Shown here: positions 16,011-57,803 of the stretch, in pieces
Layout: the number at the start of each line of letters is the position of its first letter
How positions within the stretch are numbered: position 1 is the first letter of the stretch
The notes under the pieces: generated by a model
What the model was told of the DNA's origin: nothing
Database searches by the model: none
The model's input: only the letters and a program-made list of their open reading frames with translations
From: a virus
Taxonomy: Duplodnaviria; Caudoviricetes
Length of the DNA stretch: 64,000 nt
IMG/VR virus record: IMGVR_UViG_2706795985_000001
Coordinates: 1 to 64,000 of that record
Direction: 5' to 3' (one strand)
Position numbers and translations under genes: made by a program

Positions 16011-16105
16011 GGCTTGGTAAGCCGAGATGGCCTAGCGGCAGCGGTCTTGAAAACCGAGGGTTCACGGAAGTGGACGTGTGAGTTCGAGTCTCACCCAATC
16101 CGCCA
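16011..16105 (+). tRNA. tRNA-Ser(TGA)
   Basis: Anticodon loop CTTGAAA, long variable arm, GTTCGAG T-loop, CCA. Confidence 0.85.
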
Positions 16106-16111
16106 AACAAA

Positions 16112-16188
16112 TGGCCTTTAGCATAATTGGTTAATGCAATCAACTCATAATTGATAAGATACGAGTTCAAGTCTCGTGGGGCCAACCA
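16112..16188 (+). tRNA. tRNA-Met/Ile2(CAT)
   Basis: ATCAA-CTCATAA-TTGAT arm, GTTCAAG, CCA. Confidence 0.85.
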
Positions 16189-16193
16189 AATAC

Positions 16194-16267
16194 GGACTGC
16201 CAGAGCGTCTGGCACAGTGAGATAATATCAACAACTTTCAGGGTTGTAATCCTTGAGCAGTCCACCA
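16194..16267 (+). pseudogene. Degenerate tRNA-like element
   Basis: Perfect acceptor GGACTGC/GCAGTCC plus ACCA, T-arm CAGGG-TTGTAAT-CCTTG, no canonical anticodon loop. Confidence 0.55.
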
Positions 16268-16273
16268 AACATA

Positions 16274-16565
16274 TCTGAGGAAGTCAAGCGCCTTGGTGTG
16301 AGATGAGTAACCAACTGCTCATCGGAGAACATAGCAGACTCGAAAGAGGACTCCAGACAGCCAGTGAAATGGTCGAGCCTTAGTGCGGTAATGGTTAATT
16401 TGCTATTTTGACGCTCAGACGGCAGCGGCTTATAAGTGCCGTCTTCGAATATGGTAACGTATTGATGCACTTGGTATAACGGTAACTCCTGTATTGGCCC
16501 TCCTCAGGAGTGCTGGAGTATTAAAGACATTAATACGGGCAAAGGACCACTCAACCCTTTGCTCC
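16274..16565 (+). ncRNA. Unassigned structured non-coding region within the tRNA cluster
   Basis: Closing helix TCTGAG..GTCAA / TTGAC.CTCAGA and several 6-9-bp hairpins. Confidence 0.5.
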
Positions 16566-16575
16566 TTTTAATCTA

Positions 16576-16653
16576 GGGTCGGTGTTTGGTAATCGGCAAC
16601 CGTCTGGCCTCCAAAGCCATGAGTTCTCTGTTCGAATCGGAGTCGGCCCGCCA
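16576..16653 (+). tRNA. tRNA-Trp(CCA)
   Basis: TGGC-CTCCAAA-GCCA, GTTCGAAT, CCA. Confidence 0.85.
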
Positions 16654-16758
16654 ACTATGTTCTGTGTAGTCTTGTAGGCTTACAGACGCAACAAGAGGGA
16701 GAGGATGTGTTGCCATCGCTCAGAGTCTCTTAGGAGCCTGAGAACCCCTCACTAATTT

Positions 16759-16835
16759 ATCTCCATAGCTCAACTGGACAGAGCAAGGGTTTTCTACACC
16801 CAAGGTTGAGGGTTCGAATCCTTCTGGGGATACCA
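16759..16835 (+). tRNA. tRNA-Arg(TCT)
   Basis: GGGT-TTTCTAC-ACCC, GGTTCGAATCC, CCA. Confidence 0.88.
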
Positions 16836-16924
16836 AATGTGTAAATAGTTTTAAATAAACGCTTGACAGAACATATTTGTCGTGTTTAAATACTAATATG
16901 AATCAAACACAAAGGAGAAACAAG

Positions 16925-17050
16925 ATGGCTAAACGTCCGTATGATGCAACTAAAGAACATGCTCCGGTTGACAAGACTCGCTTGAAAGACAGCAAAGGTC
17001 GTCACCCGAACAAGAATAAAGATACCAAACACCCAGTGTCTGGTAAGTGA
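16925..17050 (+). CDS. 41-aa basic small protein (not in ORF track)
   Basis: AAGGAG RBS, TTGACA at 16863 upstream, MAKRPYDATKEH...VSGK. Confidence 0.6.
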   Translation: MAKRPYDATKEHAPVDKTRLKDSKGRHPNKNKDTKHPVSGK

Positions 17051-17469
17051 CGAAACACTGTAAAGTCTGCGACGAGGTGAAACCTCAGTCTGAGTTCAAT
17101 AAGAACAAGGTTAAGTCTGATGGACTACAGACAAGGTGTCGTGAGTGCCAGAAGGCACAAAACAATAGTGGTTACATCACAAATCAGAATCGTAGAAACT
17201 CCATCAAGGCTAGAAATACTGAGGTGAAAGACTACAACAGGAAGTTGATGAGAAGGTTCAAAGCATTCTTAGGATGTTTGATCTGCCGTGAGAAGGAGCC
17301 TGTTGCTCTTGACCTGCATCACACTGATCCATCTGGCAAAGATGCGAACCCAAGCAGCTTGTTAACGTACTCCACAAACACGTTAAAAGCAGAGATTAGA
17401 AAATGTATAGTACTCTGCTCAAACTGTCATAGAAAATTTCATGCAGGTTTAATAGTTTTGCCGGAATAG
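17047..17469 (+). CDS. HNH endonuclease with N-terminal zinc ribbon, in tRNA cluster
   Basis: CKVC...CREC; CLIC...DLHH...CIVLCSNCHRKFH. Confidence 0.8.
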   Translation: MTKHCKVCDEVKPQSEFNKNKVKSDGLQTRCRECQKAQNNSGYITNQNRRNSIKARNTEVKDYNRKLMRRFKAFLGCLICREKEPVALDLHHTDPSGKDANPSSLLTYSTNTLKAEIRKCIVLCSNCHRKFHAGLIVLPE

Positions 17470-17535
17470 CACAATTGGTAGTGCAGTCGCCTTGTAAGCG
17501 AAAGGTTGAGGGTTCAAGTCCTTTTTTCGGCACCA
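17460..17535 (+). tRNA. tRNA-Thr(TGT)
   Basis: TCGC-CTTGTAA-GCGA, GGTTCAAGTCC, CCA. Confidence 0.9.
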
Positions 17536-17548
17536 AATTTAGATTTAT

Positions 17549-17625
17549 AGTGATGTGGCTCGATTGGATAGGCACCACCCTACGAAGGTGTTACAGGCAG
17601 GGTTCGAATCCGTAAATGGGCACCA
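17549..17625 (+). pseudogene. Pseudo-tRNA-Arg(ACG) with unpaired acceptor stem
   Basis: CACC-CTACGAA-GGTG arm, GGTTCGAATCC and CCA present, but 5' and 3' acceptor strands are not complementary. Confidence 0.6.
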
Positions 17626-17724
17626 AATTTGACAGCACTAACGCCTTATGGTATTGTCTGTCAATTAGCTAGGCTTGGCTTGTCAGGTAGAAGCCCGTTT
17701 TTCCAAAACCTGATACAAATTTAA

Positions 17725-17799
17725 AGTCGCTTGGCCGATTGGATTAGGCAAAGGTCCACGAAGCCTGCTAGAGTGGTTCGACTCCACTAGTTACTACCA
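17725..17799 (+). tRNA. tRNA-Arg(ACG), atypical (C33, one acceptor mismatch)
   Basis: Loop CCACGAA, AGTGG-TTCGACT-CCACT, CCA. Confidence 0.65.
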
Positions 17800-17805
17800 A
17801 ACAAT

Positions 17806-17879
17806 TGCCGGATACTTCAAAAATAGAACGTGGAGCTGATAACTCTAAAACGAAGGAGCGTTACCTTCTCTGGCGACCA
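17806..17879 (+). tRNA. tRNA-Ile(GAT) with non-canonical T-loop
   Basis: Acceptor TGCCGGA/TCTGGCG, TGGAG-CTGATAA-CTCTA, T-arm GAAGG-AGCGTTA-CCTTC, CCA. Confidence 0.65.
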
Positions 17880-19579: not shown

Positions 19580-22112
19580 ATGGCTGACGATATGGTCTTT
19601 GACTTGGACCCTAACGTTATCGGGCCAAAGTCTAAAAAGCAGTATGACTTCATGCACAGCGAGGCTGATATTACCGTTTTCGGTGGAGCAGCTGGGGCAG
19701 GCAAGAGTTACCTAGGAGTTATGGATTTCCTGAAACACATTCAATACCCAAAATTCAGGGGTTGTATGGTAAGACGTACAACTCCACAGCTGAAAGGTCC
19801 GGGCGGTCTACAAGAGAAAGCCGAAGAACTTTTCAGATTGATTGATCCAAAAGTAAGATGGCGTGATAAAGAACACCACTTTGCATTCTCCAACGGGGCT
19901 AAGATTTATCTCCGTCACTTCGAAAATCCAAAAGACACTGAGAACTTTCAAGGTTGGGAAGTAAACCACTTTCTAGTCGATGAAGGCCAGCAGTTTGAAG
20001 AGATGATGGTGGAATACCTGACATCTCGTATGCGTAACCCTAAGTGTCCTGAAGTAAAACCCCACATGAAGATCACCTGTAACCCTGACTATGGATCTTT
20101 CCTTCGTCACTGGTTAGAATGGTGGCTTGATCCTGACACAGGAATTCCTATTCCTGAACGTGACAGCAAGATCAGGTACTTCCTAAAGCTTGATGGTAAG
20201 ATGGTTTGGGGTGATACAAAAGAGGAGTTAATCGAGAAGTATGGTAAGCCGCATCTAGCTGCAGATCATCAGAACCAAGTTAAACCCCTCAGCTTTAAAT
20301 TCATTGCAGCTAACGTTAATTAATAGCGTCCTTATACAGAAATGTATATTGAAAACCTTGTTAACTCAGGGGATATCCTAACGTAGAGTCGAGGACAATC
20401 CTGAGCGAAGCTCAGAGCATTCTGAGAACGTGCAACGACTATCGAAACCGCAGAGAAATCTGAAAGGGAGTAGAGTAGGGTCAAGTGACTCGAAAAGCAA
20501 GGCATCCTAACCCAAGGGAAGGATGATGATATAGTCTGGTCTGCATGGAAACATGCAGCAGTTCATAAGAGAACGAGGCACGCCTAACGAGCGTAGCTTG
20601 AACACAACGATATGACAACCCCGTCCTATGTAACGCACAGCCCGAATATGTTGGCTGGCTTGAAGGTCTTGGTAGAGTTGAAAAAGAACGCCTGCTTTAC
20701 GGAAGCTGGCTAGCACGTGCTGAAGGCACAGGCTATTTTAAATCACAATGGTGCAACATGGTTACTCAACGCGACATAGCCTCTGTTAAGCGTGTTCGTG
20801 CATGGGATATCAGCGGCTCCGTTCCTTCTGAAACCAATCGTAACCCTGACTGGACTGCTGGCGTCTTAATGAGCCGTAGTAAGCTTGGGACTTATACAGT
20901 TGAAGATGTTGTCAGAGATCGTAAGCGTCATGGCGGCGTCTTTGAACTAATACTTGAAACTGCTAGGCACGATGGTGATGATGTTCAAATTATCATTCCT
21001 TGCGACCCCGGTGCTGCTGGTAAAGCTTATGCTGCACAGTTAATCCGTGACCTTGCCGATCAAGGTTTCTACGCAAGAATGAAACAAACTAACAAGTCAA
21101 AAGTTACTCGATTTGCCCCCTTTGCAGCCATTGCTGAAGCTGGTAGTGTTGAGATTATTGAGTCAGACTGGACCAAGGACTACCTTCTAGAGCTTGAACG
21201 TTTTGATGGTAGCAAGAATATTAAAGACGATTAACAAACTGGTTGTCTATAAACTCATTGAATTCGGTGAACACCTCCAGCAAATGTTGTAGGCAATACC
21301 GAGCCAAGCCCACGAAGTGGGAAGGTGTAACGACTATTATGTAGCCCTCAAGTGAGGTCGAAGCAGTGAGCAACGGAGACGTTGAAGAGATAGTCTACTC
21401 TGCATAGTGATATGCAGCACTCATAATTTATAGGAGAATTTCTATGGAAAAGTATATTTCTAATGGTGGACATGAATTTGTAATTCTAAGTCAACAAGGC
21501 AAAAATTGTGTAATCCAGTTCACTAACACTGGTTGGGTACGCAAGGCTAATATCGACAACATTAAGGCTGGCAAGGTTAAAGATTTATTTGAACCTTCTG
21601 TCTACGGTGTTGGTTACTACGGAGAATTTGAAAAGAACTCCTATTGGAAGCAGGCAAAACAACTCTGGCAGAATATGCACAAGCGTTGCTATTGTGAGAA
21701 AGACTTGAAAGGTTACTTTGGAGAGGCTTTCGTATCCAGAGACTGGCACTGTTTTTCAAACTTCCTTAGTGATATTAGTAAACTCAAAAACTTTGATCTA
21801 TGGCTTAAAGGCCAAAATGGTGAGAGTTTAAAGTATAACCTTGACAAAGATTTATTGATTGCTGGTTGTAAAGTCTACAGCAAAGAAACTTGCCAATTTG
21901 TAAGTGAGTCTGAAAATAAAGCAGATGGAGCTACAAGGGGCAAGCCATATACCAAGAAAACAAGAGTGGCTAAGGAGTAACGACCCTTGGTTAATATATT
22001 GCAGGTCGATGCAACATCAGACGCTTTCCACGCTTTGTCATCTGAGCAGTATCTTCCAGACTTCTCAGTTCCAACAATGACTCAATCCAATCCATTTGCA
22101 TTTTACAGATAA
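19580..22112 (+). CDS. terL: Terminase large subunit, spliced: 19580-20316 + 20610-21231 + 22002-22112 (489 aa)
   Basis: GGAAGAGKS Walker A, LVDEG Walker B; splicing restores ANVYDNP and KDD|QVDATSDAF nuclease motif. Confidence 0.92.
20317..20609 (+). mobile_element. Group I intron terL-I1 (293 nt, no ORF)
   Basis: P1 ACGU/GCGU with U.G at 5' splice site; GACAATCCTGAGCGAAG, CAACGACTATC, GATATAGTC cores; terminal G20609; joined frame open. Confidence 0.92.
21232..22001 (+). mobile_element. Group I intron terL-I2 (770 nt) carrying an endonuclease ORF
   Basis: P1 GACGAU/GUUGUC; AATACCGAGCCAAG, TAACGACTA, GAGATAGTC; terminal G22001. Confidence 0.92.
21444..21980 (+). CDS. Intron-encoded HNH-type homing endonuclease
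   Basis: VYGVGY...WQNMHKRCY...WHCFSNF...LDKDLL...YSKETCQFV; AGGAG RBS. Confidence 0.85.
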   Translation: MEKYISNGGHEFVILSQQGKNCVIQFTNTGWVRKANIDNIKAGKVKDLFEPSVYGVGYYGEFEKNSYWKQAKQLWQNMHKRCYCEKDLKGYFGEAFVSRDWHCFSNFLSDISKLKNFDLWLKGQNGESLKYNLDKDLLIAGCKVYSKETCQFVSESENKADGATRGKPYTKKTRVAKE

Positions 22113-22120
22113 GGACAATC

Positions 22121-23986
22121 ATGGCCAAGAGAACAAAGATTGAAAAAGTTGCCACTCCGATGCCCCGTCTTCGTCTAGGTGAGATTGGTAGTGTTGGCCT
22201 AAAACAGTATGGCGGCCATGTTGCAGAAGAGCAACGTAGGGAACTTCAGTTTCCAGAGGCTTGCAGAACATTCCGTACAATGGCACAAGATGCCACGATC
22301 AAGTCAGCCATCTCTCTAGTAGAAATGATGATCAGTCGAGTTGACTGGACAATCAACCTTGGTGTTGGACCAGATGCAGCTATGAAGGCCCGTGGTGAAT
22401 TCCTTGAATCTGTAATCCATGATATGGATCATAGCTTTGATGACTTCATCAGAGAAGTGACCAGCATGTACACTTATGGATTTTCTGTTCATGAGAAAGT
22501 TTACCGTCGCAGAACATTTGAAGCTGGGTCTTCCTACAATGACAACAAGATAGGCATCAAGAAGCTACCTGTTCGCTCTCAGGACACGATCTCTCGCTGG
22601 GTATACAGTGATGACGGTAGAGACCTTATAGGTCTAGAACAGAACCTAGCGGGCATTCAGGGCGGAGACAGGTACGCCAACATGGTCAACCTCTCTTCTA
22701 ATGGGATCATTCAGATTCCTAGAAAGAAGTTTATGCTATTTCGTGTAGATGCTAAGCGTGACAACCCTGAGGGTAACAGTCCTCTACGTGGTTGCTATAA
22801 TGCTTGGCTATTCCGTAGGCAGATTGAAGAACAAGAAGCCATTGGTGTTACGCGTTGACTTTAGTCACACACCACTAACAAAAGTGAATAGCGCCTTCAG
22901 TTAGAAATGACTGTCGAATAAATCTCTTAATTGCTGGAAACTCCTTAGAGCCTTGAATACCGAAGTGTGACAATTTCAAGGATTGGACAATCAGCAGCGA
23001 AGCGCATGTGCCCTCCTGAATAACTCAGTAAGGAGTAAGACATATGATAAAATACCCAGAATCAAGAAACACTGGGTACATGCGAACGTTCAACGACTAT
23101 CCCGCAAGGGAGTAGGGCCAAGTGGCTCGAAATAGAGGTCATCCTACTAATGAGGATGGTGATATAGTCTGGTCTTATGTGAGAGCATAAGCAGTAGGTT
23201 TCTGGCATAGAGCTTACGGGTAGTGTCTAACGAGCACTATTGAACAACACGGATATGAACGGTATGCCAACTTTGTATCTTCCTCCACGCTATATGAGCG
23301 AGGATGCTTCTGATAGTGAGAAGGCAATCTTTGAATACTATAAGAACGTCATTCGTAACATCCAAATGAATGAGCAATCTGGTCTTATCTTGCCACAAGC
23401 ATTTGACCCAGAAAGCCGTCAACCACTCTTCAAGTTTGAACTGACTTCCACGCAAGGTGGGAAGATGTATGACACAGACGTAATCATCAAACGCTGGGAT
23501 AACAAAATCCTACAAGTTTTGTTTGCTGATATGTTGAAGATGGGTCAGGACCAAGTTGGATCTTACTCGCTGGCCGGGGCAAAAACAAATATTATGGCGA
23601 TGGCTATTGAAGCCCGTCTTAAAGAGATTCAAGACACCCTCAACAACGATTTGATTCCACAATTGTTTGCACTTAATGGGGAAACCCTGACAGCCAAACA
23701 ACTGCCTAAACTGCAGTATGGTGATCTTGACGAAGTTGACTTGGATGAATTCTCTAAAGCAATCCAACGTATGGGTAGTGTTGGTGCTCTTGAACTTGAC
23801 CGTCCTATGGCGAACAAGATTCGTGAAAGCATTAAAGTTGTGCCTAAGAAAGACGACGAACCAGTTGACAAAGAAGAGATCATGGGAGGCGACAGCCAAG
23901 CAGGTGACGGAATGGCAGCAGGCGGTGGTAATGGTGCTTCGAGTAATGCCTCATCAAGAGACAACGCTGCTGCCAATAACGCATAG
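22121..23986 (+). CDS. Portal protein, spliced: 22121-22855 + 23252-23986 (489 aa)
   Basis: Follows terL; NPEGNSPLRG...EAIGVTR|DMNGMP...QVGSYSL; frames join exactly. Confidence 0.9.
22856..23251 (+). mobile_element. Group I intron in portal gene (396 nt, no ORF)
   Basis: AATTGCTGGAAACTCC, GACAATCAGCAGCGAAG, GTTCAACGACTA, GATATAGTC; terminal G23251. Confidence 0.92.
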
Positions 23987-29540: not shown

Positions 29541-31099
29541 ATGACCGTTCTTACGGATATCATCGAAATTAACATCAGTAGAGAAACTGCTGCTGTTGCT
29601 CAAACAAACTTCAACGTACCTCTGTTCATTTCTGCACACACAAAATTTGCAGAGAGAGCGCGTTCTTACACAAGCCTTCCAGCTGTTGCTAATGATTTTG
29701 ATCCTACAGACTCGGCATACATTGCTGCACAGAAGTTATTCAGCCAAACATTGACTCCGTCTAGAATTGTTATCGGACGTAGACTAGTGCCAAGCTCTAC
29801 TGTAAGCGTCAGCACTGCCGGGGCAGGGACTTACACTGTCACCATCAATGACATACCTTTTGCTTTTGTAGCTACTTCGTCGAACACTTCGATTCAAATC
29901 GCCACAGGACTTAAAGCTTCATATGACGTTACCCCTGTAGCAGGAGTCACTGTCACTGATAAGCTTGACGGAACGCTCACTGTAGCTTCTACAGTCGGGT
30001 ATTCCCTAGAGGTTTCTACAAATCTTAACCAAGCAAACTCGCCTTCTACAGAGTCTTGGGTAACTTCTGTTAACTCTGTAACAACAGTTGATAACTCTTG
30101 GTACGTGCTGACAATTGAATCTCATGCTGAGGCTGACGTTCTTGCAGTGGCTGCTCAAGTGGAAGGTATGAAGAAAGTTTTCGGAACCTCTTCTCAGTCT
30201 ACTGATGTTAAGACTACTTCTACAACAGATACATTCTCAAAGTTGAAAGCTTTGGGCTATCAACGCACTTTCGGTGTCTACTCTGCCACTGCAGATAGTG
30301 AATACCCAGAAGTAGCTTGGGTAGGATACCAGCTAAAAGAACAGCCCGGTTCTAACACATGGGCTTATAAGTCTCTTTCTGGTGTAACTGTAAGCTCACT
30401 GAGCCCAACAGAATCTACCAACGTGTTAAACAAATCTGCATCTACTTATGAAACTGTTGGTGGTCTGAACAGTACAATTGGTGCTAAGATGTTTGGTGGT
30501 GAATGGATCGACGTTATTATCTTTGTTGACTGGCTGGAACAGCGTATGAAAGAACGTCTGTGGAACCGTATGGCCAACAGCAAGAAAATTCCTTACACAG
30601 CAGCAGGCGCTGCAATCATCGAAGCTGAGATCCGTGCTCAGTTGAATGATGGTATTCGTGTAGGTGGTTTGGCTAACAGCCCAGCTCCAACTGTGTCTGT
30701 ACCAGATGTTCTTACCTTGTCCACAAACCTACGTGCTCAACGTGATTGAAGGTATCACCTTTTTCAAGCTAGACTAGCCGGTGCGATACATTTTGTGAAG
30801 ATATCAGGAACCGTTAATTAAAAGTGGCGGCTTTGTGGTGTGAACTACATCGAATAACTTATCTAATTCGGGGGATATCCTAACGTAGAGTCGAGGACAA
30901 TCCTGAGCGAAGCTCAGAGCATTCTGAGAACGTGCAACGACTATCCCGCAAGGGAGTAGGGCCAAGTGGCTCGAAATGGTAAGGGGCTTCCAATTTAAGG
31001 AAGTTCGTGATATAGTCTATTCTGCATGGAAACATGCAGCAGTTCATAAGAGAACGAGTGTTGTCTAACGAGCAACGTTGAATGTAAAGAACAGTATAA
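29541..31099 (+). CDS. Tail sheath protein, spliced 29541-30814 + 31090-31099 (427 codons; in-frame TGA at 30747 in this assembly)
   Basis: Sheath-like sequence (W.YK.LSGV, WIDVIIFVDWL); conserved-looking end QARLAGAIHFVKISGTV|TV lies in the same frame past the TGA. Confidence 0.85.
30815..31089 (+). mobile_element. Group I intron in sheath gene (275 nt, no ORF)
   Basis: P1 CCGU/GCGG; core blocks identical to terL-I1 and portal introns; terminal G31089; splicing gives GT|A ACA GTA TAA. Confidence 0.88.
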
Positions 31100-51005: not shown

Positions 51006-51024
51006 GGTTTTGGATAGGGGCAAT

Positions 51025-51165
51025 ATGAACGAAATTATCTACAGAGCTACAAACATCGCCAACGGAAAGTCCTATATAGGAAAGACAGTGGCAGGTCTTG
51101 ATAAGAGGCGAAGACAACATGAACGGAACTCCAAAAGAGCAGTCCAATGGGCGAAGGAGCAATGA
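51025..51165 (+). pseudogene. 46-aa N-terminal GIY-YIG endonuclease fragment (not in ORF track)
   Basis: IIYRATNIANGKSYIGKT...RRRQH, then stop. Confidence 0.75.
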
Positions 51166-52691: not shown

Positions 52692-52720
52692 TTGACAGGT
52701 CGTAAGACCCCTGTTACACT
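52692..52720 (+). promoter_or_regulatory. Sigma70-like promoter
   Basis: TTGACA-17-TACACT. Confidence 0.75.
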
Positions 52721-52752
52721 TACCAAATCAAATATCAAAGGAGAGAAACAAA

Positions 52753-53370
52753 ATGGCACAGATTTCCATTACCCGCGCTTTGGCTGAAGTAAAATCCCTG
52801 AACGACCGTATCGAGAAAGCCACTCGACAAGCCGTATTCGTTACAGTGACTGTTGGTGGCAAGACTACCAATGGTCAAGACCTTCAGACGGCTACCAACC
52901 AGTTGAAGGCAAGCTTGCAATCGGTTCAAGACCTGATCGCTCGTCGTCAAGCAGTTAAGACTGCAATCATCCGTTCGAATGCTGTGGCTACTGTCACCAT
53001 CAACGGCAAGACTCTGACCGTGGCTGAGGCCATCGAGCGTAAGGGTTCCATCGACAAAGAGCGTGCTCTGATGTCCGTCCTGCAAACTCAACTGGGTCAA
53101 GTACGATCTGTTGTGGAACGTAACAACGTTCAAATGCAAGGCCGTATCGACACCATGCTTCAAGCTGCTGTTGGTAAGGAACGCAAGGCTACCGAGGAAG
53201 AGCTAGAGGCCATCAGCAAGCCCTACACTGCTTCGAACGTAACCGCTCCACTTGACCCTAACGGGCTGGAAGCTGTGATCCTGAAGATGGAAGCTGATAT
53301 CAACGGTTTCTTGTTTGAGGTTGACTTCGCTCTGTCTGAGGCTAACGCCAAGACCTTGATTGAAGCCTAA
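52753..53370 (+). CDS. Coiled-coil protein of unknown function
   Basis: AGGAGAG RBS, strong codon bias, all-helical; SITRALAEVK...LTVAEAIERK...DFALSEANA. Confidence 0.85.
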   Translation: MAQISITRALAEVKSLNDRIEKATRQAVFVTVTVGGKTTNGQDLQTATNQLKASLQSVQDLIARRQAVKTAIIRSNAVATVTINGKTLTVAEAIERKGSIDKERALMSVLQTQLGQVRSVVERNNVQMQGRIDTMLQAAVGKERKATEEELEAISKPYTASNVTAPLDPNGLEAVILKMEADINGFLFEVDFALSEANAKTLIEA

Positions 53371-53735
53371 CAGCTTTCGGTCTAACGTAAAAGTTTTCTC
53401 ATGCTGCGACGAATTGCCTAAATTCACGCAACCCATTCCTTGGGGGTATATCCGGGGAGCCTATTTTAGAATAGCCTAATGGCTAATCCAAAGACTAGTG
53501 AATATTCTCATTCGCATATGATCGCCTCCGTTTTGAGGAGGCTGTATTGACTACGTTCAAAGATCAAATAGGAAAGCTGCAAAGCTAAAAGATGAAGGGC
53601 CTTCGAGCCATATAAACCTTTTAAAGATTTAACCAGTATCGATACAAAGCTTCTCCAAATCTTGGATACATGTTGAGACGTATCTGTGTGACGGACGCTG
53701 GCAATGCTACCGAGCTGTCGTGGGCATGAGACCCA
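53370..53735 (+). ncRNA. Candidate structured RNA / long 3' UTR
   Basis: No ORF; ends pair (53370-81 with 53709-18); internal hairpins; AAAG-repeat tract. Confidence 0.55.
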
Positions 53736-53739
53736 ATTA

Positions 53740-53768
53740 AAACCCTGCCCTAACTGGCGGGGTTTTTT
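53740..53768 (+). terminator. Intrinsic terminator
   Basis: AACCCTGCC-loop-GGCGGGGTTTTTT. Confidence 0.8.
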
Positions 53769-53780
53769 CACATCTGGGGC

Positions 53781-53808
53781 TTGACAAAGGTAGAGACTGG
53801 TGTAGAAT
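53781..53808 (+). promoter_or_regulatory. Sigma70-like promoter
   Basis: TTGACA-16-TAGAAT. Confidence 0.7.
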
Positions 53809-53835
53809 TCGCTCATACAAACAGGAGAGACAAAA

Positions 53836-54841
53836 ATGAAATTCGAAGGCAAGCTTGAGATAGGTGGTTTGGCTATGATCATTGGTTGTACCAAACCTGA
53901 AAACAACTGGATCATCGGCAAGATCGTGAAGATTGAGATGTTCACATCTGTTGGAGATAACTTGACTTGGCTGTACCCATCGGCTGCGGCCACTGGCACA
54001 GTCATAGAAGATACGCCAGAGATTGCAATTTGTTCTGGCCTATCCACCAACAATACTACAAATATGGGGCACCCAATTCTCAAGAATCACGTAAAAATCG
54101 GAAAGAAATATCTGATGCCTCTACCACCTCTGGAAGAGGAAGAGCTGGTAGAGGAACGTGAACTGGAGATGTTCCATTGATCACAGAAGGTCATATCCTC
54201 AACATGGTGAATGAGCTTGAGAAGCGTGTACAGGCTCGGGATAACACATACTCTGTAAGAGTTCAAGCCCAGATGCACATCCAAGGTCCAATATACATAA
54301 TCTCTATTGAAAATGCCACAAGCATAGACCAGTATGAGGTTGACTCCAGCACTCATCAATGGATTCGAAGGTTAGAGGTTTATGAACAGCAAGATTAGAA
54401 ACCCCTTGGCTGGACCCAATAGACGTGTTAACCTCCCCAAGGTTGAACGTGATCGTACAAAGTACCGTCGCAAACGTAAACACAAAAGGAGTGACAATAA
54501 TGAGTAAGTTGCAAGCACCAATCGCAAATGGCAACATCTTGATGGTGAACTTCCCGCACATGCCAATGCTGCACGACTTCATCATCCACGCACAAATCAC
54601 ACAATACAGCGTGACTCAGGCTGAGGAAGGTGTTATGCTCTCGATCCCTATCACAGAGGCACTTGAGAATCACTCTACAGGTTTGGTTCACGGTGCAAGA
54701 GCGCGTGCAAAGGCCGCTGAGAAGCCTGACCCTAAACCCCCAACAGGAGGTGGAAGCCCAGATGGGACTCCTCCGGGCGGTGGAACACCGGGTACGCCCG
54801 TTATTGAGACTTACACATTCACGGAGGCAAAGGCAGCATGA
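53836..54841 (+). CDS. Hypothetical genes (53836-54180, 54177-54398, about 54500-54841 with Pro/Gly tail)
   Basis: RBSs and coupled starts. Confidence 0.6.
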
Positions 54842-55001
54842 GTGTTTCATTGCTTGTTTTGATAAACCATACAGATAAGGTAACTTCTCAAGTGGTTAAG
54901 TTTTCATCTAGGACAGAAGCTGTACAAGCAAAGGTCGCAATAGAGGAAGATTTTCGTAAAAGTGTGTGGGCTGTTCGGATAACAATATTGGAGGGGACTG
55001 C

Positions 55002-57803
55002 TTGACAAGTCTGGAGATAGCAAAGAAGTACGGGATAGACCTATATACCTACGGTAAGGTTGCATGCCCTAAATGCGAGAGTAAGGGTATGGACAGGTCA
55101 GGTGATAATTTAATGGTCTACGGTACAGATGATGTAGGTCGTCACAGGGGCGCGCATTGTTGGGGTGGTTGTGGTGGTTTTACCATACCGTCTGAAGAGT
55201 ATCTAGAAGAAAACGGTGTTACAGAAGAAAAGGAGTACAACGTAGTGGGTGCTGAGTTTAACGATGAGATTCACAAGAAGATGAAAGAGGTGACTACCAC
55301 AGACTCTAAGGGTTATCGTGGTATTCGTAAAGACACTACAGCAGCTTTTGGTGTTCGACATGAAGTGAACACACAGACAGGCGAGATTGCTGTCCAATAC
55401 TACCCTTGCACTATGGAAAGTGCAGACAATGATCATGGATTTATTCTCACTGGTTACAAAAAGCGTACACTGCCTAAGACTTTTGGCGGCGCACTTGGTG
55501 AGACTGGCAAGGAATGTCAGCTGTTTGGTCAGTTCAAGTTTATACGTGATCGAGGCAAATACTGCCTGATTGTTGGTGGTGAGATTGACCAACTGTCCGC
55601 CTACCAGATGCTCGCAGACTACCAGAAAGGTAAAGGCTATGAAGCTTTCCCTGTCGTATCACCAACCATCGGTGAGACTGGCTGTGAGAAACAGATTGTA
55701 GGCCAGTACGAGTGGTTTAACCGATTCGAGCGTATTATCGTCTGTATGGACAACGACGCAGCGGGTAGAGAAGCTTCTGAGAAAGTTTGCAAGGCATTGC
55801 CTAAGGGTAAAGCTTTCATTATGGAAATGGGCTTGAAAGACCCTAACGAGTATTTGAAGGCTAATAAGGAACGTGAGTTCATTTCAGCATTCTACAATGC
55901 AGCTCCCTACACTCCAAGTGGTATTGTTGGTAGTGGTAGTTTGATGAAGCTTATGAAGGCAGCGGCAGTGACACCTAAGATACCACTCCCACCATTTATG
56001 CACAAAGTGCAGAAGATGATGGCTGGTGGTATTATGCTCAAGACTATTACAAACTTAGGTAGTGCTTCTGGTTGTGTAGATAAGGACACTGAATATCTAA
56101 CTCCCCAAGGTTGGAAAAAGTTTGATGAGTATGTTGTTGGTGACCTCGTTGCCCAGTACCATAAAGATGGCCAGATGACCTTTGTAGAGCCTTTGGAGTA
56201 TGTTAAAAAGCCTTGCGGAGTCATGACTCATTTCAGCAACCGCTCCACTGATCAAGTGCTGTCAGACGAGCATCGGTTTGTATACTACTCTCAGGCCAAG
56301 GGTGGTAAGGTTCATATCAAACCTTTTGCGGAAGTGAGAGAATTACATGAGAGAAATGTGACAGGGTTTCGTGGTCATATTGCCACTACGTTCGAGTATA
56401 GCGGGAAGGGTATTGATTTCAGCGAGGGCGAGCTTCGCCTGCAAGTTGCTGTAATGGCTGACGGCCGGATTGTCAAAGAGGGTAAGGACAACTATACTCA
56501 AATGCGCTTCAATAAAGAGCGTAAGTATCTTAGACTTATCGACATGGTTAAGAAGTTTAAATTGAGTTATGATGACAAGGGTCTTGGAGAAGATGGATAC
56601 TACCAAGTTATTGTATGGCCAAAAACTCAGGACAAGGCTTATTCTGAGGAGTTTTACAACGCAACACAGGAACAGCTTCAAATTATCTGTGATGAAGTTA
56701 TGCACTGGGATGGCTATCTTGAAAATCAGGTATATACTTCCTGCCGTAAAGGTGATGTAGACTTCCTCCAGTTCGCTTATGCGGCCTGCGACAAGCGGGC
56801 GGTGGTTGGTGAAGATAAACGTACTGGTAAGTACAAAGGAGGTTACTGCGGAGTTCTAAGTGTCAACAAGGCTAGCCATAGCCAGCGTGTCTCTATTCGC
56901 AGTGTGGGGGGCAGAGATAAGACTGAGATGAAGGAGTACAAAACCCTTGACGGCTTTAAATACTGCTTCATGGTTGAGACTGGTATGCTTGTTCTTCGCC
57001 GTAACGGTCGAATCTTCATCACTGGTAATACTGGTAAGTCAACAATCGTTGACGAGTGCGTTTATCACTGGATTTATCACAGCCCACACAAACCGGGAGT
57101 CCTCTCACTTGAAAGTGACTGTGCCCAGTACGGAAACAAGATGTTGTCTCGTCGTCTGGGACTTAAGCTTGATTTGATTGAAGATGACCAGTATAAGATC
57201 GATCTTTTGAATAGTGCTGAGGTTGAAGAGGCAGCTCAGGATTTGTTCTTCCTGCCAGATGGCAGTCACCGCTGGCACTTGGTTGAGGAGCGTGACGGTT
57301 CTATTGAAGATATCAAAGAGAAGATCATGCAACTGATCGTTGCTTGTGAGTGTAAGGTGATTATCATTGACCCACTTCAAGATATCCTTGATGGTATGAG
57401 CAATGAAGAGCAAGCCGTGTTCATGAAGTGGCTAAAAGGCACAGTGAAGAGCCATGATGTGTCCTTCATTTTGATTAACCACGTTCGTAAGAGTGCAAAT
57501 GGTGGCAAGCAAAACTCCGCAGGTGCTGATCTGTTCGAAGAAGACTTTGCTGGTAGTTCGGCAATATTTAAATCAGCAGCCTGTAATCTGCTGTTTACTC
57601 GTAATAAAGAAGCGGAAAATGAGGTAGAGCGTAACATAACAAAAATGAAAGTAACTAAGCTGCGTTGGACTGGCAACACAAGCCCAGATGCAGGACGCTA
57701 CTACTATGATAATAAGACACACACTTTGTGGGACTTGGACGACTATCTTGATAGAAATCCAACTGTAAAGGCTGAGTATCTGGCCAGTCAGCAGGAGGAG
57801 TAG
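55002..57803 (+). CDS. T7 gp4-like primase-helicase with intein (likely TTG start 55002)
   Basis: Zn-ribbon CPKC, TOPRIM GGEID...DND, Walker A GSASG|TGKS, IIIDP, LINHVRK. Confidence 0.9.
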   Translation: MTSLEIAKKYGIDLYTYGKVACPKCESKGMDRSGDNLMVYGTDDVGRHRGAHCWGGCGGFTIPSEEYLEENGVTEEKEYNVVGAEFNDEIHKKMKEVTTTDSKGYRGIRKDTTAAFGVRHEVNTQTGEIAVQYYPCTMESADNDHGFILTGYKKRTLPKTFGGALGETGKECQLFGQFKFIRDRGKYCLIVGGEIDQLSAYQMLADYQKGKGYEAFPVVSPTIGETGCEKQIVGQYEWFNRFERIIVCMDNDAAGREASEKVCKALPKGKAFIMEMGLKDPNEYLKANKEREFISAFYNAAPYTPSGIVGSGSLMKLMKAAAVTPKIPLPPFMHKVQKMMAGGIMLKTITNLGSASGCVDKDTEYLTPQGWKKFDEYVVGDLVAQYHKDGQMTFVEPLEYVKKPCGVMTHFSNRSTDQVLSDEHRFVYYSQAKGGKVHIKPFAEVRELHERNVTGFRGHIATTFEYSGKGIDFSEGELRLQVAVMADGRIVKEGKDNYTQMRFNKERKYLRLIDMVKKFKLSYDDKGLGEDGYYQVIVWPKTQDKAYSEEFYNATQEQLQIICDEVMHWDGYLENQVYTSCRKGDVDFLQFAYAACDKRAVVGEDKRTGKYKGGYCGVLSVNKASHSQRVSIRSVGGRDKTEMKEYKTLDGFKYCFMVETGMLVLRRNGRIFITGNTGKSTIVDECVYHWIYHSPHKPGVLSLESDCAQYGNKMLSRRLGLKLDLIEDDQYKIDLLNSAEVEEAAQDLFFLPDGSHRWHLVEERDGSIEDIKEKIMQLIVACECKVIIIDPLQDILDGMSNEEQAVFMKWLKGTVKSHDVSFILINHVRKSANGGKQNSAGADLFEEDFAGSSAIFKSAACNLLFTRNKEAENEVERNITKMKVTKLRWTGNTSPDAGRYYYDNKTHTLWDLDDYLDRNPTVKAEYLASQQEE
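56073..57029 (+). mobile_element. Intein in helicase P-loop (319 aa, LAGLIDADG-like core)
   Basis: CVDKDTEYLT start, SDEHRF block B, AVMADG/VMHWDG, ITGN|T end. Confidence 0.92.

What the first reader, a model, noticed from the sequence alone, without database searches (positions are those of the whole stretch)
52692..53768. Self-contained unit: promoter, 205-aa coiled-coil gene, ~350-nt closed RNA domain, terminator
Seen: TTGACA-17-TACACT promoter, strong RBS, all-helical protein, then about 370 nt with no plus-strand ORF in a genome where genes usually overlap. The domain's ends pair (ACAGCT-tt-CGGT 53370-81 with ACCGAGCTGT 53709-18). It encloses hairpins (TGCG/CGCA with GAATT/AATTC, ACCC/GGGT, CTATT/AATAG, GCCTCC/GGAGGC, GATAC/GTATC) and a periodic tract TTCAAAGATCAAATAGGAAAGCTGCAAAGCTAAAAG, followed by a terminator. 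Inference: a protein plus cognate structured RNA (RNP, toxin-antitoxin-like pair or scaffold).
Basis: partly seen in the sequence, partly recalled or inferred. Interest (0 to 1): 0.78.

Follow-up and report, generated by a model that had tools for sequence, protein, structure and literature searches.

The report
Phage protein gene with knotted repeat RNA
Right behind a small, mostly helical protein gene, this Pseudomonas phage makes a real 329-base non-coding RNA that folds into a double knot and displays a row of 7-base repeats. The same uncatalogued gene-plus-RNA pair sits unannotated in phage T5, many other large phages and some bacterial chromosomes, and its job is unknown.

Summary
The unit is real: sigma-70 promoter (52692-52720), 205-aa gene (52753-53370), 329-nt RNA (53400-53728), terminator (53740-53769). 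Nanopore cDNA contigs from two studies span exactly 52727-53749.

The RNA is conserved in 41 phage records of the genera Otagovirus and Flaumdravirus. Its fold has closing helix P1, long-range helices P2 and P3, helix Py crossing them, and a second knot in hairpin H1. In 28 sequences 97% of cells pair, and 11 pairs changed on both sides against 5.0±1.1 in shuffles. Eleven Clostridia-genome copies show the same fold.

Its 5' arm is an indel absent from most relatives.

The protein (phrog_1491, mislabelled "tail fiber") occurs in 739 phage records. Its predicted fold resembles the uncharacterised protein DIP1984 (PDB 3kdq). Every relative checked carries the RNA downstream, often in a tRNA cluster. 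No Rfam family or paper matches.

Best reading: a dedicated protein-RNA particle, with protomers bound along the repeats. Binding is inferred, not shown. It resembles VIPR (Viral Interference Programmable Repeat, a phage repeat-RNA system) and TRAP only by analogy.

This scan found the same pair before on other DNA (T5-like, gut and Bacillus-type phages).

The parts
52692..52720 (+). Sigma-70-type promoter TTGACA-17-(TG)TACACT; transcription start at about 52727
   Evidence: Consensus scan, 10 of 12 matches with TG. cDNA contigs of two studies begin at 52727, one with an adaptor at that end.
52740..52745 (+). Ribosome-binding site GGAGAG
   Evidence: Read from the sequence; 7 nt upstream of the ATG at 52753.
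52753..53370 (+). 205-aa gene, phrog_1491 family (labelled 'tail fiber protein' in databases; DIP1984-like helical fold)
   Evidence: ORF. PHROG E 1.4e-73. 2155 clusters at 50% identity. AF2 pLDDT 96.4. Best solved fold is 3kdq: Foldseek E 0.011, VIA Z 10.1 over 151 of 152 residues.
53371..53399 (+).
   Evidence: Absent from 13 of the 19 aligned sequences.
53400..53728 (+). Whole structured RNA (329 nt), from the P1 5' strand to the P1 3' strand
   Evidence: Alignments A1 and A3. RNAalifold. Pair counts: 97.3% paired, 11 double-sided pairs against 5.0±1.1, 0 of 500 shuffles. No Rfam match at E<=10.
53400..53411 (+). P1 5' strand; pairs with 53716-53728
   Evidence: 12 pairs, 99.4% paired, 3 with changes on both sides.
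53413..53418 (+). P2 5' strand AUUGCC; pairs with GGCAAU at 53700-53705
   Evidence: 100% paired. One compensatory C-G to U-A change, in L029.
53424..53429 (+). P3 5' strand UCACGC; pairs with GUGUGA at 53686-53691. This is a pseudoknot with Py.
   Evidence: 100% paired; 3 of 6 pairs changed on both sides (AU/UA/CG; CG/UA).
53431..53459 (+). ACCC (53431-34) pairs with GGGU in the loop of hairpin H1 (53436-43 with 53452-59), forming a second pseudoknot
   Evidence: H1: 2 pairs with double-sided changes. ACCC/GGGU: 100% paired, one C-G to G-C change in L025. The same arrangement (CCC / GGGUUAU loop) occurs in Clostridia copies.
53462..53543 (+).
   Evidence: Mean column identity 0.31 and 48% gaps. 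Different hairpins occupy the same place in relatives.
53544..53595 (+). Conserved GYAUUGAC motif and repeat array: about six units of 7 (one of 8) nt with core U-Y-A-A-A-G
   Evidence: Mean identity 0.88 and no gaps. No covarying helix was found there. Period 7 is clear across the family.
53596..53660 (+). Optional hairpin (53596-53611), then a conserved A-rich stretch with further AAAG units that ends in CCAAAUC
   Evidence: Identity 0.22 and 0.82 respectively. AAAUC before Py is shared by all clades.
53661..53714 (+). 3' knot. Py 5' strand CUUGG (53661-65), hairpin Hx (53668-83), P3 3' strand, P2 3' strand, and Py 3' strand CCGAG (53710-14) followed by CUG.
   Evidence: In the window's clade Py is 100% paired, with G-C to A-U changes and an inserted pair in UNO-G1W1. 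Across 27 non-Otago tails RNAalifold finds Py alone, with 4 of 5 pairs covarying; one pair shows all four Watson-Crick types.
53716..53728 (+). P1 3' strand
   Evidence: See P1.
53740..53769 (+). Intrinsic terminator (stem of 7-10 pairs, loop CUAACU, U-run)
   Evidence: Read from the sequence. Scan. Conserved position with compensating stems in relatives. cDNA contigs end at 53749.

Best explanation
This is a two-part module made early in infection: one transcript from a host-type promoter carries the 205-aa gene and then a 329-nt non-coding RNA. The RNA's two ends are clamped by helix P1. Two further 5'-proximal strands (P2, P3) reach across 270 nt to pair inside the loop closed by helix Py, and a second small knot locks hairpin H1. 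This compact knotted base holds out a long, mostly unpaired loop. The loop carries about six (up to about ten in relatives) 7-nt units with a fixed U-Y-A-A-A-G core. I propose that several copies of the neighbouring DIP1984-like helical protein bind side by side on these units, one or two units per protomer. That would give a stable ribonucleoprotein particle whose ends are protected by the knot. Its cellular target is unknown. Its frequent position inside phage tRNA clusters or beside RNA ligase points to translation, RNA repair or counter-defence.

Shown: the transcript, the fold, the repeats, and strict gene-RNA synteny across very distant phages and some bacteria.

Inferred: protein-RNA binding, stoichiometry and function.
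For: - Synteny: the gene family is in 739 phage records. The 370-480-nt gene-free gap follows it in P. gessardii phage 254, T5, Bcp1 and PVP-SE1. The signature (closing helix, AAAUC + Py ... Py' + GCUG) was found automatically in 72 of 75 non-identical downstream regions and by eye in 21 of 21 bacterial loci.
- Fold: covariation in two independent clades and for Py across 27 diverse tails. Many G-U pairs would be A-C on the other strand, so the + strand RNA is the functional form.
- Expression: cDNA contigs 52727-53749 in two studies.
- Repeats: period 7 across the family. The tract is 88% conserved while neighbouring hairpins are 22-31% conserved, and no covarying helix lies in it. This fits a single-stranded binding platform.
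- The repeat core differs by clade along with the protein: UYAAAG, UUAAUG, UCAAYG, UUAUAG.
- The repeat number varies, which fits open-ended rather than ring binding.
- Invariant basic and polar residues (K14, R65, K69, S75, N76, K97) lie on the long helices.
Against: - No direct evidence of binding.
- The protein has no recognisable RNA-binding domain.
- Synteny could reflect co-transcription or a shared regulon rather than contact.
- Clade-specific repeat cores travel with phylogeny, so they do not prove co-evolution.
- In the window itself the periodicity is weak.
- An alternative 5' hairpin that excludes P1b, P2 and P3 is also conserved, so the fold may be dynamic.
Confidence: 0.55

Rival explanations
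1. The RNA acts on its own as a decoy or sponge for a host or defence factor. Candidates are an RNA-binding protein, an anticodon nuclease or a tRNA: the AAA and AAG units are lysine codons followed by a purine. The upstream protein is merely co-expressed.
For: The RNA sits in or next to tRNA clusters in many phages and next to RNA ligase in phage 254. It carries multiple identical short motifs, like sponge RNAs. In PVP-SE1 a terminator-like hairpin lies between gene and RNA, which suggests separate expression there.
Against: Gene-RNA adjacency is near-universal across Gram-negative and Gram-positive hosts. That is hard to explain if a host factor is the only partner. The repeat core changes with the protein clade, not obviously with the host.
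Confidence: 0.2
2. The element is a cis-acting 3' UTR. It stabilises the upstream mRNA against 3' exonucleases or mediates feedback control of it.
For: In this clade gene and RNA are on one transcript with no promoter between them. The knotted 3' domain plus terminator would block exonucleases.
Against: 329 nt with two pseudoknots and a conserved repeat array is far more than stabilisation needs. In other phages the RNA lies in tRNA operons, where processing would separate it from the mRNA. Closure of 5' and 3' ends by P1 is typical of a stand-alone RNA.
Confidence: 0.1
3. It is a VIPR-like programmable guide. The variable positions between the fixed repeat cores read a nucleic-acid target in a non-contiguous code, with the helical protein playing the role of Vipr, the VIPR system's RNA-binding protein.
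For: It has alternating fixed and variable positions: the base after AAAG in unit 1 shows all four letters among close relatives. It has a repeat tract plus a pseudoknotted conserved domain, as in vrRNA, the repeat RNA of VIPR. It is phage-encoded.
Against: The tract is among the most conserved parts (0.88) and nearly invariant in 27 T5-like phages, so it is not hypervariable. There is only one RNA per genome and at most 2 free bases per unit. No antisense match longer than 12 nt exists in the phage's own genome. The protein is not a RAMP, the RRM-core fold family to which Vipr belongs.
Confidence: 0.05
4. It is a type III toxin-antitoxin-like pair: a protein toxin neutralised by its repeat RNA.
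For: A protein gene adjoins a repeat RNA in a self-contained unit. Phages are known to carry or mimic such RNAs.
Against: The order is protein then RNA, not RNA-terminator-toxin. The repeats are 7 nt, not about 36 nt. No endoribonuclease fold or family hit was found. The pair is present in strictly lytic phages as a conserved core-like gene.
Confidence: 0.04
5. It is a DNA-level element (replication origin, iterons or a packaging site) and not an RNA.
For: It has short direct repeats and lies upstream of the primase/helicase block in this phage.
Against: Compensatory changes keep pairs over 270-320 nt, with many G-U pairs that work only on the + strand as RNA. The 7-nt period does not match DNA helical phasing. 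The region is transcribed from promoter to terminator. Its genomic position differs between phage families, while adjacency to the protein gene is kept.
Confidence: 0.03

Closest known systems
VIPR systems (Vipr protein + vrRNA), bioRxiv 10.64898/2026.04.26.720920 and 10.64898/2026.04.26.720927
   Same: Phage-encoded. A small protein gene is flanked by a non-coding RNA made of short tandem units with fixed and variable positions. The tract is joined to a conserved pseudoknotted domain. In VIPR the protein oligomerises along the repeats (and the abstracts).
   Different: Vipr is a RAMP (RRM core, G-loop, thumb), whereas this protein is a helical DIP1984-like bundle. vrRNA is about 100 nt with a 5-nt YNNGG unit and hypervariable NN, and often comes in arrays. 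Here there is one RNA of 330 nt per genome, with a 7-nt UYAAAG unit, a conserved tract and closure by P1. There is no vap accessory gene. This is analogy only.
TRAP with the trp leader, and HutP with the hut leader (Bacillus); from my own knowledge
   Same: An oligomeric protein reads evenly spaced short RNA motifs: GAG/UAG every 5-6 nt for TRAP, and UAG every 7 nt for HutP.
   Different: Those are cis-regulatory leaders of host operons with ring-shaped beta-rich proteins and a fixed repeat number. Here there is a stand-alone knotted RNA, a variable repeat number, and an unrelated helical protein.
GOLLD and ROOL large 'ornate' RNAs (Rfam)
   Same: Large, complex, phage- or prophage-associated RNAs of unknown function, often next to tRNA genes.
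   Different: There is no sequence or structure match (Rfam scans). Those RNAs are larger and, to my knowledge, have no dedicated partner gene and no heptad array.
DIP1984 protein of Corynebacterium diphtheriae (PDB 3kdq); Pfam DUF6847 (PF20935)
   Same: It is the best structural match of the predicted protein (Foldseek probability 1.0, E 0.011; VIA Z 10.1, 151 of 152 residues). Two of 62 family members touch PF20935 at E 0.004.
   Different: It is 152 aa against 205 aa, with 13-19% identity (by aligner) and rmsd 6.6 Å. Z is below the level that is safe for helical bundles. Its function is unknown, so it explains nothing.
Type III toxin-antitoxin systems (ToxIN)
   Same: A protein plus a tandem-repeat RNA in one small unit, linked with phages.
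   Different: See the toxin-antitoxin rival explanation: the order, repeat length and protein fold all differ.

Membership tests
VIPR | Vipr protein is a RAMP (RRM core, G-loop, thumb) | tested here: not met
   The AF2 model (pLDDT 96.4) is a bundle of long helices with short strands. Its best folds are 3kdq and other helical bundles.
VIPR | RNA of 9-16 five-nt YNNGG units with hypervariable NN | tested here: not met
   The period is 7 and the core is UYAAAG. The tract is 88% conserved.
VIPR | Conserved structured tail with a pseudoknot next to the repeats | tested here: met
   The P2/P3-Py pseudoknot is supported by covariation. This is a resemblance of design only.
Heptad-repeat knotted RNA that follows phrog_1491 genes (uncatalogued; seen in T5, Bcp1, PVP-SE1, Clostridia) | Lies directly downstream of a phrog_1491 homologue, on the same strand | tested here: met
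Heptad-repeat knotted RNA that follows phrog_1491 genes (uncatalogued; seen in T5, Bcp1, PVP-SE1, Clostridia) | P1 closes the ends; CGAA follows the P1 5' strand; AAAUC + Py ... Py' + (G)CUG + P1 3' strand | tested here: met
   Window: CGACGAA, CCAAAUC-CUUGG ... CCGAG-CUG-UCGU. The same order is seen in all clades.
Heptad-repeat knotted RNA that follows phrog_1491 genes (uncatalogued; seen in T5, Bcp1, PVP-SE1, Clostridia) | A 5' strand pairs into the Py loop (pseudoknot), and a CCC/GGG knot forms in hairpin H1 | tested here: met
   Covariation in the window's clade and independently in the Clostridia clade. For other clades only single-sequence complementarity is available, and it is not above shuffles.
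Heptad-repeat knotted RNA that follows phrog_1491 genes (uncatalogued; seen in T5, Bcp1, PVP-SE1, Clostridia) | Statistical homology of the RNA to non-Otago members | tested here: inconclusive
   A covariance model of the 3' tail built without Otago sequences hits Otago tails full-length at the right place, but only at E 0.008-0.3. The window scores 10.3 bits at E 0.3.
RAGATH-27 (Rfam RF03100) | Match to the 86-position model at or near the gathering score (76.1 bits) | tested here: not met
   No hit in the window RNA at E<=10. No hit at the locus in the window's own genome, T5, Bcp1, L066 or L076, nor in 40 further loci.
GOLLD / ROOL / tmRNA / RNase P / group I intron (Rfam models) | Covariance-model match | tested here: not met
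   Aragorn finds no tmRNA here. The four group I introns of the window lie elsewhere.
Type III toxin-antitoxin | Endoribonuclease toxin preceded by an array of roughly 34-36-nt repeats | tested here: not met
   No nuclease family or fold. The RNA lies downstream and has 7-nt units.
DIP1984 / DUF6847 (PF20935) | Pfam model above the gathering score | tested here: not met
   The window protein gets no Pfam hit at E<0.08. Two of 62 relatives hit at E 0.004. Fold similarity to 3kdq is moderate.

The most novel reading that the evidence does not exclude
The heptad array is a recognition code. A filament of DIP1984-like protomers fixes the UYAAAG cores and exposes the one or two free bases of each unit to read a gapped nucleic-acid target. 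That would be a second, independently invented tandem-repeat RNA-guided system beside VIPR, built on an unrelated helical protein and present in classic phages such as T5.
Probability: 0.06. Interest if true: 0.95.

Novelty: categorically new. Interest (0 to 1): 0.8.

Why it matters
Phage T5 and its relatives, Bastille-type Bacillus phages, Lactococcus 949-type phages and Pseudomonas syringae biocontrol phages all carry this pair. In all of them the RNA is unannotated and the protein is mislabelled "tail fiber". A conserved 300-400-nt double-knotted RNA with a dedicated partner protein, spread across phages of Gram-negative and Gram-positive hosts, points to a basic and still unknown activity of large virulent phages. 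That activity probably lies at the interface with translation, tRNA biology or inter-virus conflict. The module is small, self-contained and expressed from a host-type promoter, so the question can be tested directly in T5 with E. coli. Two practical gains follow at once: the "tail fiber" annotation of phrog_1491 can be corrected, and an RNA family can be added to Rfam.

Tried and rejected
- Rfam at gathering and permissive thresholds gave nothing at the RNA. This covered the window and about 64 related loci.
- Aragorn found no tRNA or tmRNA here.
- Pfam, NCBIfam and PDB sequence searches of the protein gave only chance-level hits.
- A covariance model of the 3' tail built from non-Otago members was too weak to prove homology statistically.
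- I tested the pseudoknot in other clades by the longest complementary run. Shuffled loops do as well (median P 0.66), so my hand-picked pairings in T5, PVP-SE1 and others count only as leads.
- A search of the phage's own genome found no antisense match longer than 12 nt, which is chance level.
- The search for related loci with the diverse protein alignment failed for lack of a conserved stretch.
- Literature searches gave no paper on this pair. The terms were T5 non-coding RNA, DIP1984, DUF6847, phrog_1491, ONT-cappable-seq in P. syringae phage, and tandem-repeat RNPs.
- I considered RNase P, tmRNA and group I intron readings. I dropped them on topology, missing signature sequences and the lack of model hits.
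- The minus-strand 191-aa ORF (53508-54083) and the small ORFs annotated in some relatives are inconsistent between genomes. I rejected them.
Full report
**What the window is.** The window comes from a 90.5-kb virus record. Across this locus it is 98.9% identical to Pseudomonas syringae phage vB_PsyM_KIL2, genus Flaumdravirus. The stretch lies in the early region, about 1.6 kb upstream of the primase/helicase gene.

**Checking the observation.**
- The promoter TTGACA-17-TACACT, with a TG just upstream of the -10 box, is at 52692-52720.
- A GGAGAG ribosome-binding site lies 7 nt before the ATG at 52753, and the ORF ends at 53370.
- The next gene starts at 53836 behind its own TTGACA-16-TAGAAT promoter at 53781-53808.
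- Between them there is no credible ORF, and a terminator sits at 53740-53769.
- Public Nanopore cDNA runs from two different studies each hold a contig covering exactly 52727-53749. That is from 7 nt after the -10 box into the terminator stem.
- One contig carries 24 extra letters at the 52727 end. From my own knowledge these are the ONT strand-switching primer, which marks an RNA 5' end.
- These are contigs from a close relative: 16-18 differences, all in the variable part. They show presence and boundaries, not abundance or processing.

So the "self-contained unit" is real.

**The RNA is a conserved folded molecule.**
- The intergenic region is conserved at 72-98% in 41 Otagovirus and Flaumdravirus records, although annotators placed inconsistent small ORFs there or none.
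- The alignment shows near-invariant 5' and 3' blocks around inserts of changing length.
- RNAalifold and a scan for covarying column pairs found the helices below.
- RNA position 1 corresponds to window 53400.

| Helix | RNA positions | Note |
|---|---|---|
| P1 | 1-12 with 317-329 | closes the two ends |
| P2 | 14-19 with 301-306 | long-range |
| P3 | 25-30 with 287-292 | long-range |
| H1 | 37-44 with 53-60 | hairpin |
| ACCC/GGGU | 32-35 with 45-48 | pairs into the H1 loop |
| Py | 262-266 with 311-315 | crosses P2 and P3 |

The fold therefore has two pseudoknots.

On 28 distinct sequences the support is strong:
- 97.3% of cells pair.
- 11 pairs changed on both sides, against 5.0±1.1 in shuffles (0 of 500 reach it) and 0-4 when the partners are slid.
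- P1, P2, P3, H1, Py and the small knot each have at least one compensatory change.
- UNO-G1W1 has even inserted a matching A and U into Py.
- Frequent G-U pairs would be A-C on the other strand, so the + strand RNA is the functional form.

The proposed closure (53370-81 with 53709-18) is not the conserved one. Its 5' arm lies in an 18-nt indel that 13 of 19 aligned sequences lack. Its 3' arm belongs to Py and P1. The TGCG/CGCA plus GAATT/AATTC hairpin is conserved, with two double-sided changes, but it excludes P1b, P2 and P3. It may be a folding intermediate or a switch.

**The protein.**
- It is phrog_1491, labelled "tail fiber protein". That label is carried into many records with nothing here to support it.
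- It has no Pfam, NCBIfam or PDB sequence relative.
- The family is large and very uniform in length: 2155 clusters at 50% identity, about 205 aa. It is present in 739 phage records.
- These include T5-like phages, Bastille-type Bacillus phages, PVP-SE1-like phages, Vibrio, Klebsiella and Erwinia jumbo phages, and Lactococcus 949-type phages.
- AlphaFold2 with 62 sequences gives a confident model (pLDDT 96.4) of long helices with short strands.
- The best solved match in two independent searches is 3kdq, the uncharacterised DIP1984 protein of C. diphtheriae (Foldseek E 0.011; VIA Z 10.1 over 151 of 152 residues). That is moderate for a helical bundle.

**The pair is a widespread module.**
- In all four distant annotated phages I opened, the homologue is followed by a gene-free gap of 370-480 nt. 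These were P. gessardii phage 254, T5 ORF080, Bcp1 and PVP-SE1 gp83.
- Their sequences show the same plan. A long closing helix joins the two ends, and CGAA follows its 5' strand. A row of A-rich 7-nt units comes next, then AAAUC + helix Py, and finally Py' + GCUG + the closing strand.
- An automatic finder recovered this signature in 72 of 75 non-identical downstream regions. The other three show it by eye.
- Twenty-one loci in bacterial genomes (Clostridia, Exiguobacterium and others) have it too, by eye.
- On 27 tails from outside the window's clade, RNAalifold finds Py alone, with 4 of 5 pairs covarying.
- Eleven Clostridia copies, aligned on their own, support P1, P3, the CCC/GGG knot, H1 and Py. 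There, 94.5% of cells pair and 12 pairs changed on both sides, against 5.8±1.3 (0 of 500).
- Their 5' domain even shares CCUAAAUU and the GGGUUAU loop with the window.

Caveats on homology:
- A tail-only covariance model built without Otago sequences finds Otago tails only at E 0.008-0.3.
- My hand-picked pseudoknot pairings in single sequences of other clades are no better than shuffles.
- Homology of the window RNA to the T5-type RNAs therefore rests on synteny plus shared anatomy, not on a significant model score.

**The repeats.**
- Period 7 is clear in relatives: lag-7 identity 0.57-0.68 against a shuffle maximum of about 0.5. It is borderline in the window, at 0.44 against 0.46.
- The window has about six units, one of them 8 nt long.
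- The tract is 88% conserved, while the flanking hairpins are 22-31% conserved. It holds no covarying helix.
- The fixed core differs by clade:

| Clade | Repeat core |
|---|---|
| Window, T5, PVP-SE1, Bcp1 | UYAAAG |
| Clostridia | UUAAUG |
| Exiguobacterium | UCAAYG |
| 949-type Lactococcus phages | UUAUAG |

- The unit number also varies, from about 5 to about 10.

**Context.** In many phages the pair lies inside or beside the tRNA cluster. In phage 254 it lies before RNA ligase. In this window the tRNAs are 35 kb away, and an RNA ligase gene lies about 2 kb upstream on the other strand. The genome holds one copy of the RNA.

**What it most likely is.**
- I read it as a dedicated protein-RNA particle: a knotted base that protects both ends and displays a single-stranded array on which several protomers sit.
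- From general geometry, seven stacked nucleotides span about 20-23 Å, close to the width of a helical bundle. This is inference.
- Binding, stoichiometry and function are not shown.
- Rivals are listed separately with odds: an autonomous decoy or sponge, a 3' UTR stabiliser, a VIPR-like guide, a type III toxin-antitoxin pair, and a DNA element.

**Comparison with known systems.**
Vipr is a RAMP protein, and vrRNAs are about 100 nt with 5-nt YNNGG units and hypervariable NN.
- The present protein, unit length, motif and conservation pattern all differ, so this is analogy and not membership.
- TRAP and HutP are functional analogies taken from my own knowledge.
- A 2026 survey of periodic intergenic arrays reports 5-, 18- and 60-79-nt classes. 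It also reports a 7-nt class from Patescibacteriota without a partner protein, which is not this family.
- I found no paper on DIP1984, DUF6847 or phrog_1491 in this sense.

**Verdict.** The interpretation "protein plus cognate RNA" holds genetically. The structure model needed correcting, and the mechanism remains inferred. The same pair has already been noted by this scan in other genomes.

Noticed in passing
window 53405-53430: A local 5' hairpin (UGCG/CGCA plus GAAUU/AAUUC) is conserved in all 28 relatives, with two double-sided changes. It cannot coexist with P1b, P2 and P3, which are also conserved. It may be a co-transcriptional folding intermediate or a conformational switch.
   Followed up: partly
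window 53544-53551 (KIL2 record 54196-54224): The invariant GYAUUGAC just before the repeat array is annotated as a promoter -35 box in the KIL2 record. The consensus scan finds no promoter there, and no conserved -10 box follows. It looks like an RNA-level motif.
   Followed up: partly
window 20307-20558, 21195-21417, 22876-23191, 30806-31039: Four group I introns score above the Rfam gathering score in one 64-kb window.
   Followed up: no
window 16011-17876: A tRNA cluster: Ser, Met, Arg, Thr and Arg by Aragorn. Rfam adds a weak tRNA hit at 17806-17876 (34 bits) that Aragorn does not call.
   Followed up: no
window 54966-57803: The primase/helicase ORF is 945 aa here, while relatives are annotated at about 600-640 aa or as two joined pieces (KIL2). 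This fits an inserted intein, as another first-reader note says.
   Followed up: no
window 51010-51165: A short ORF with a GIY-YIG-like start (NIANGKSYIGKT; KIL2 'putative endonuclease', 46 aa). It looks like a homing-endonuclease remnant.
   Followed up: no
L071 845-932 and L072 842-929: In two IMG/VR phages a skipping-rope RNA (RF02924, 61-63 bits) lies about 270 nt upstream of the phrog_1491 gene. The module can therefore neighbour another orphan phage RNA.
   Followed up: no
L016 1-221 (phage Pyxpy01): The 74-aa gene upstream of the module is annotated 'SsrA-binding protein SmpB' in that record. It is too short for SmpB, and I did not check it.
   Followed up: no
L101-L117, just downstream of the RNA: In the Clostridia genome copies the RNA is followed by a gene whose N-terminus I read, from my own knowledge, as a helix-turn-helix regulator (N-terminus ...LRLRK..GLSVK.LQ.YFGF..PQAIYKWQWG). 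This suggests a prophage or mobile-element setting.
   Followed up: no
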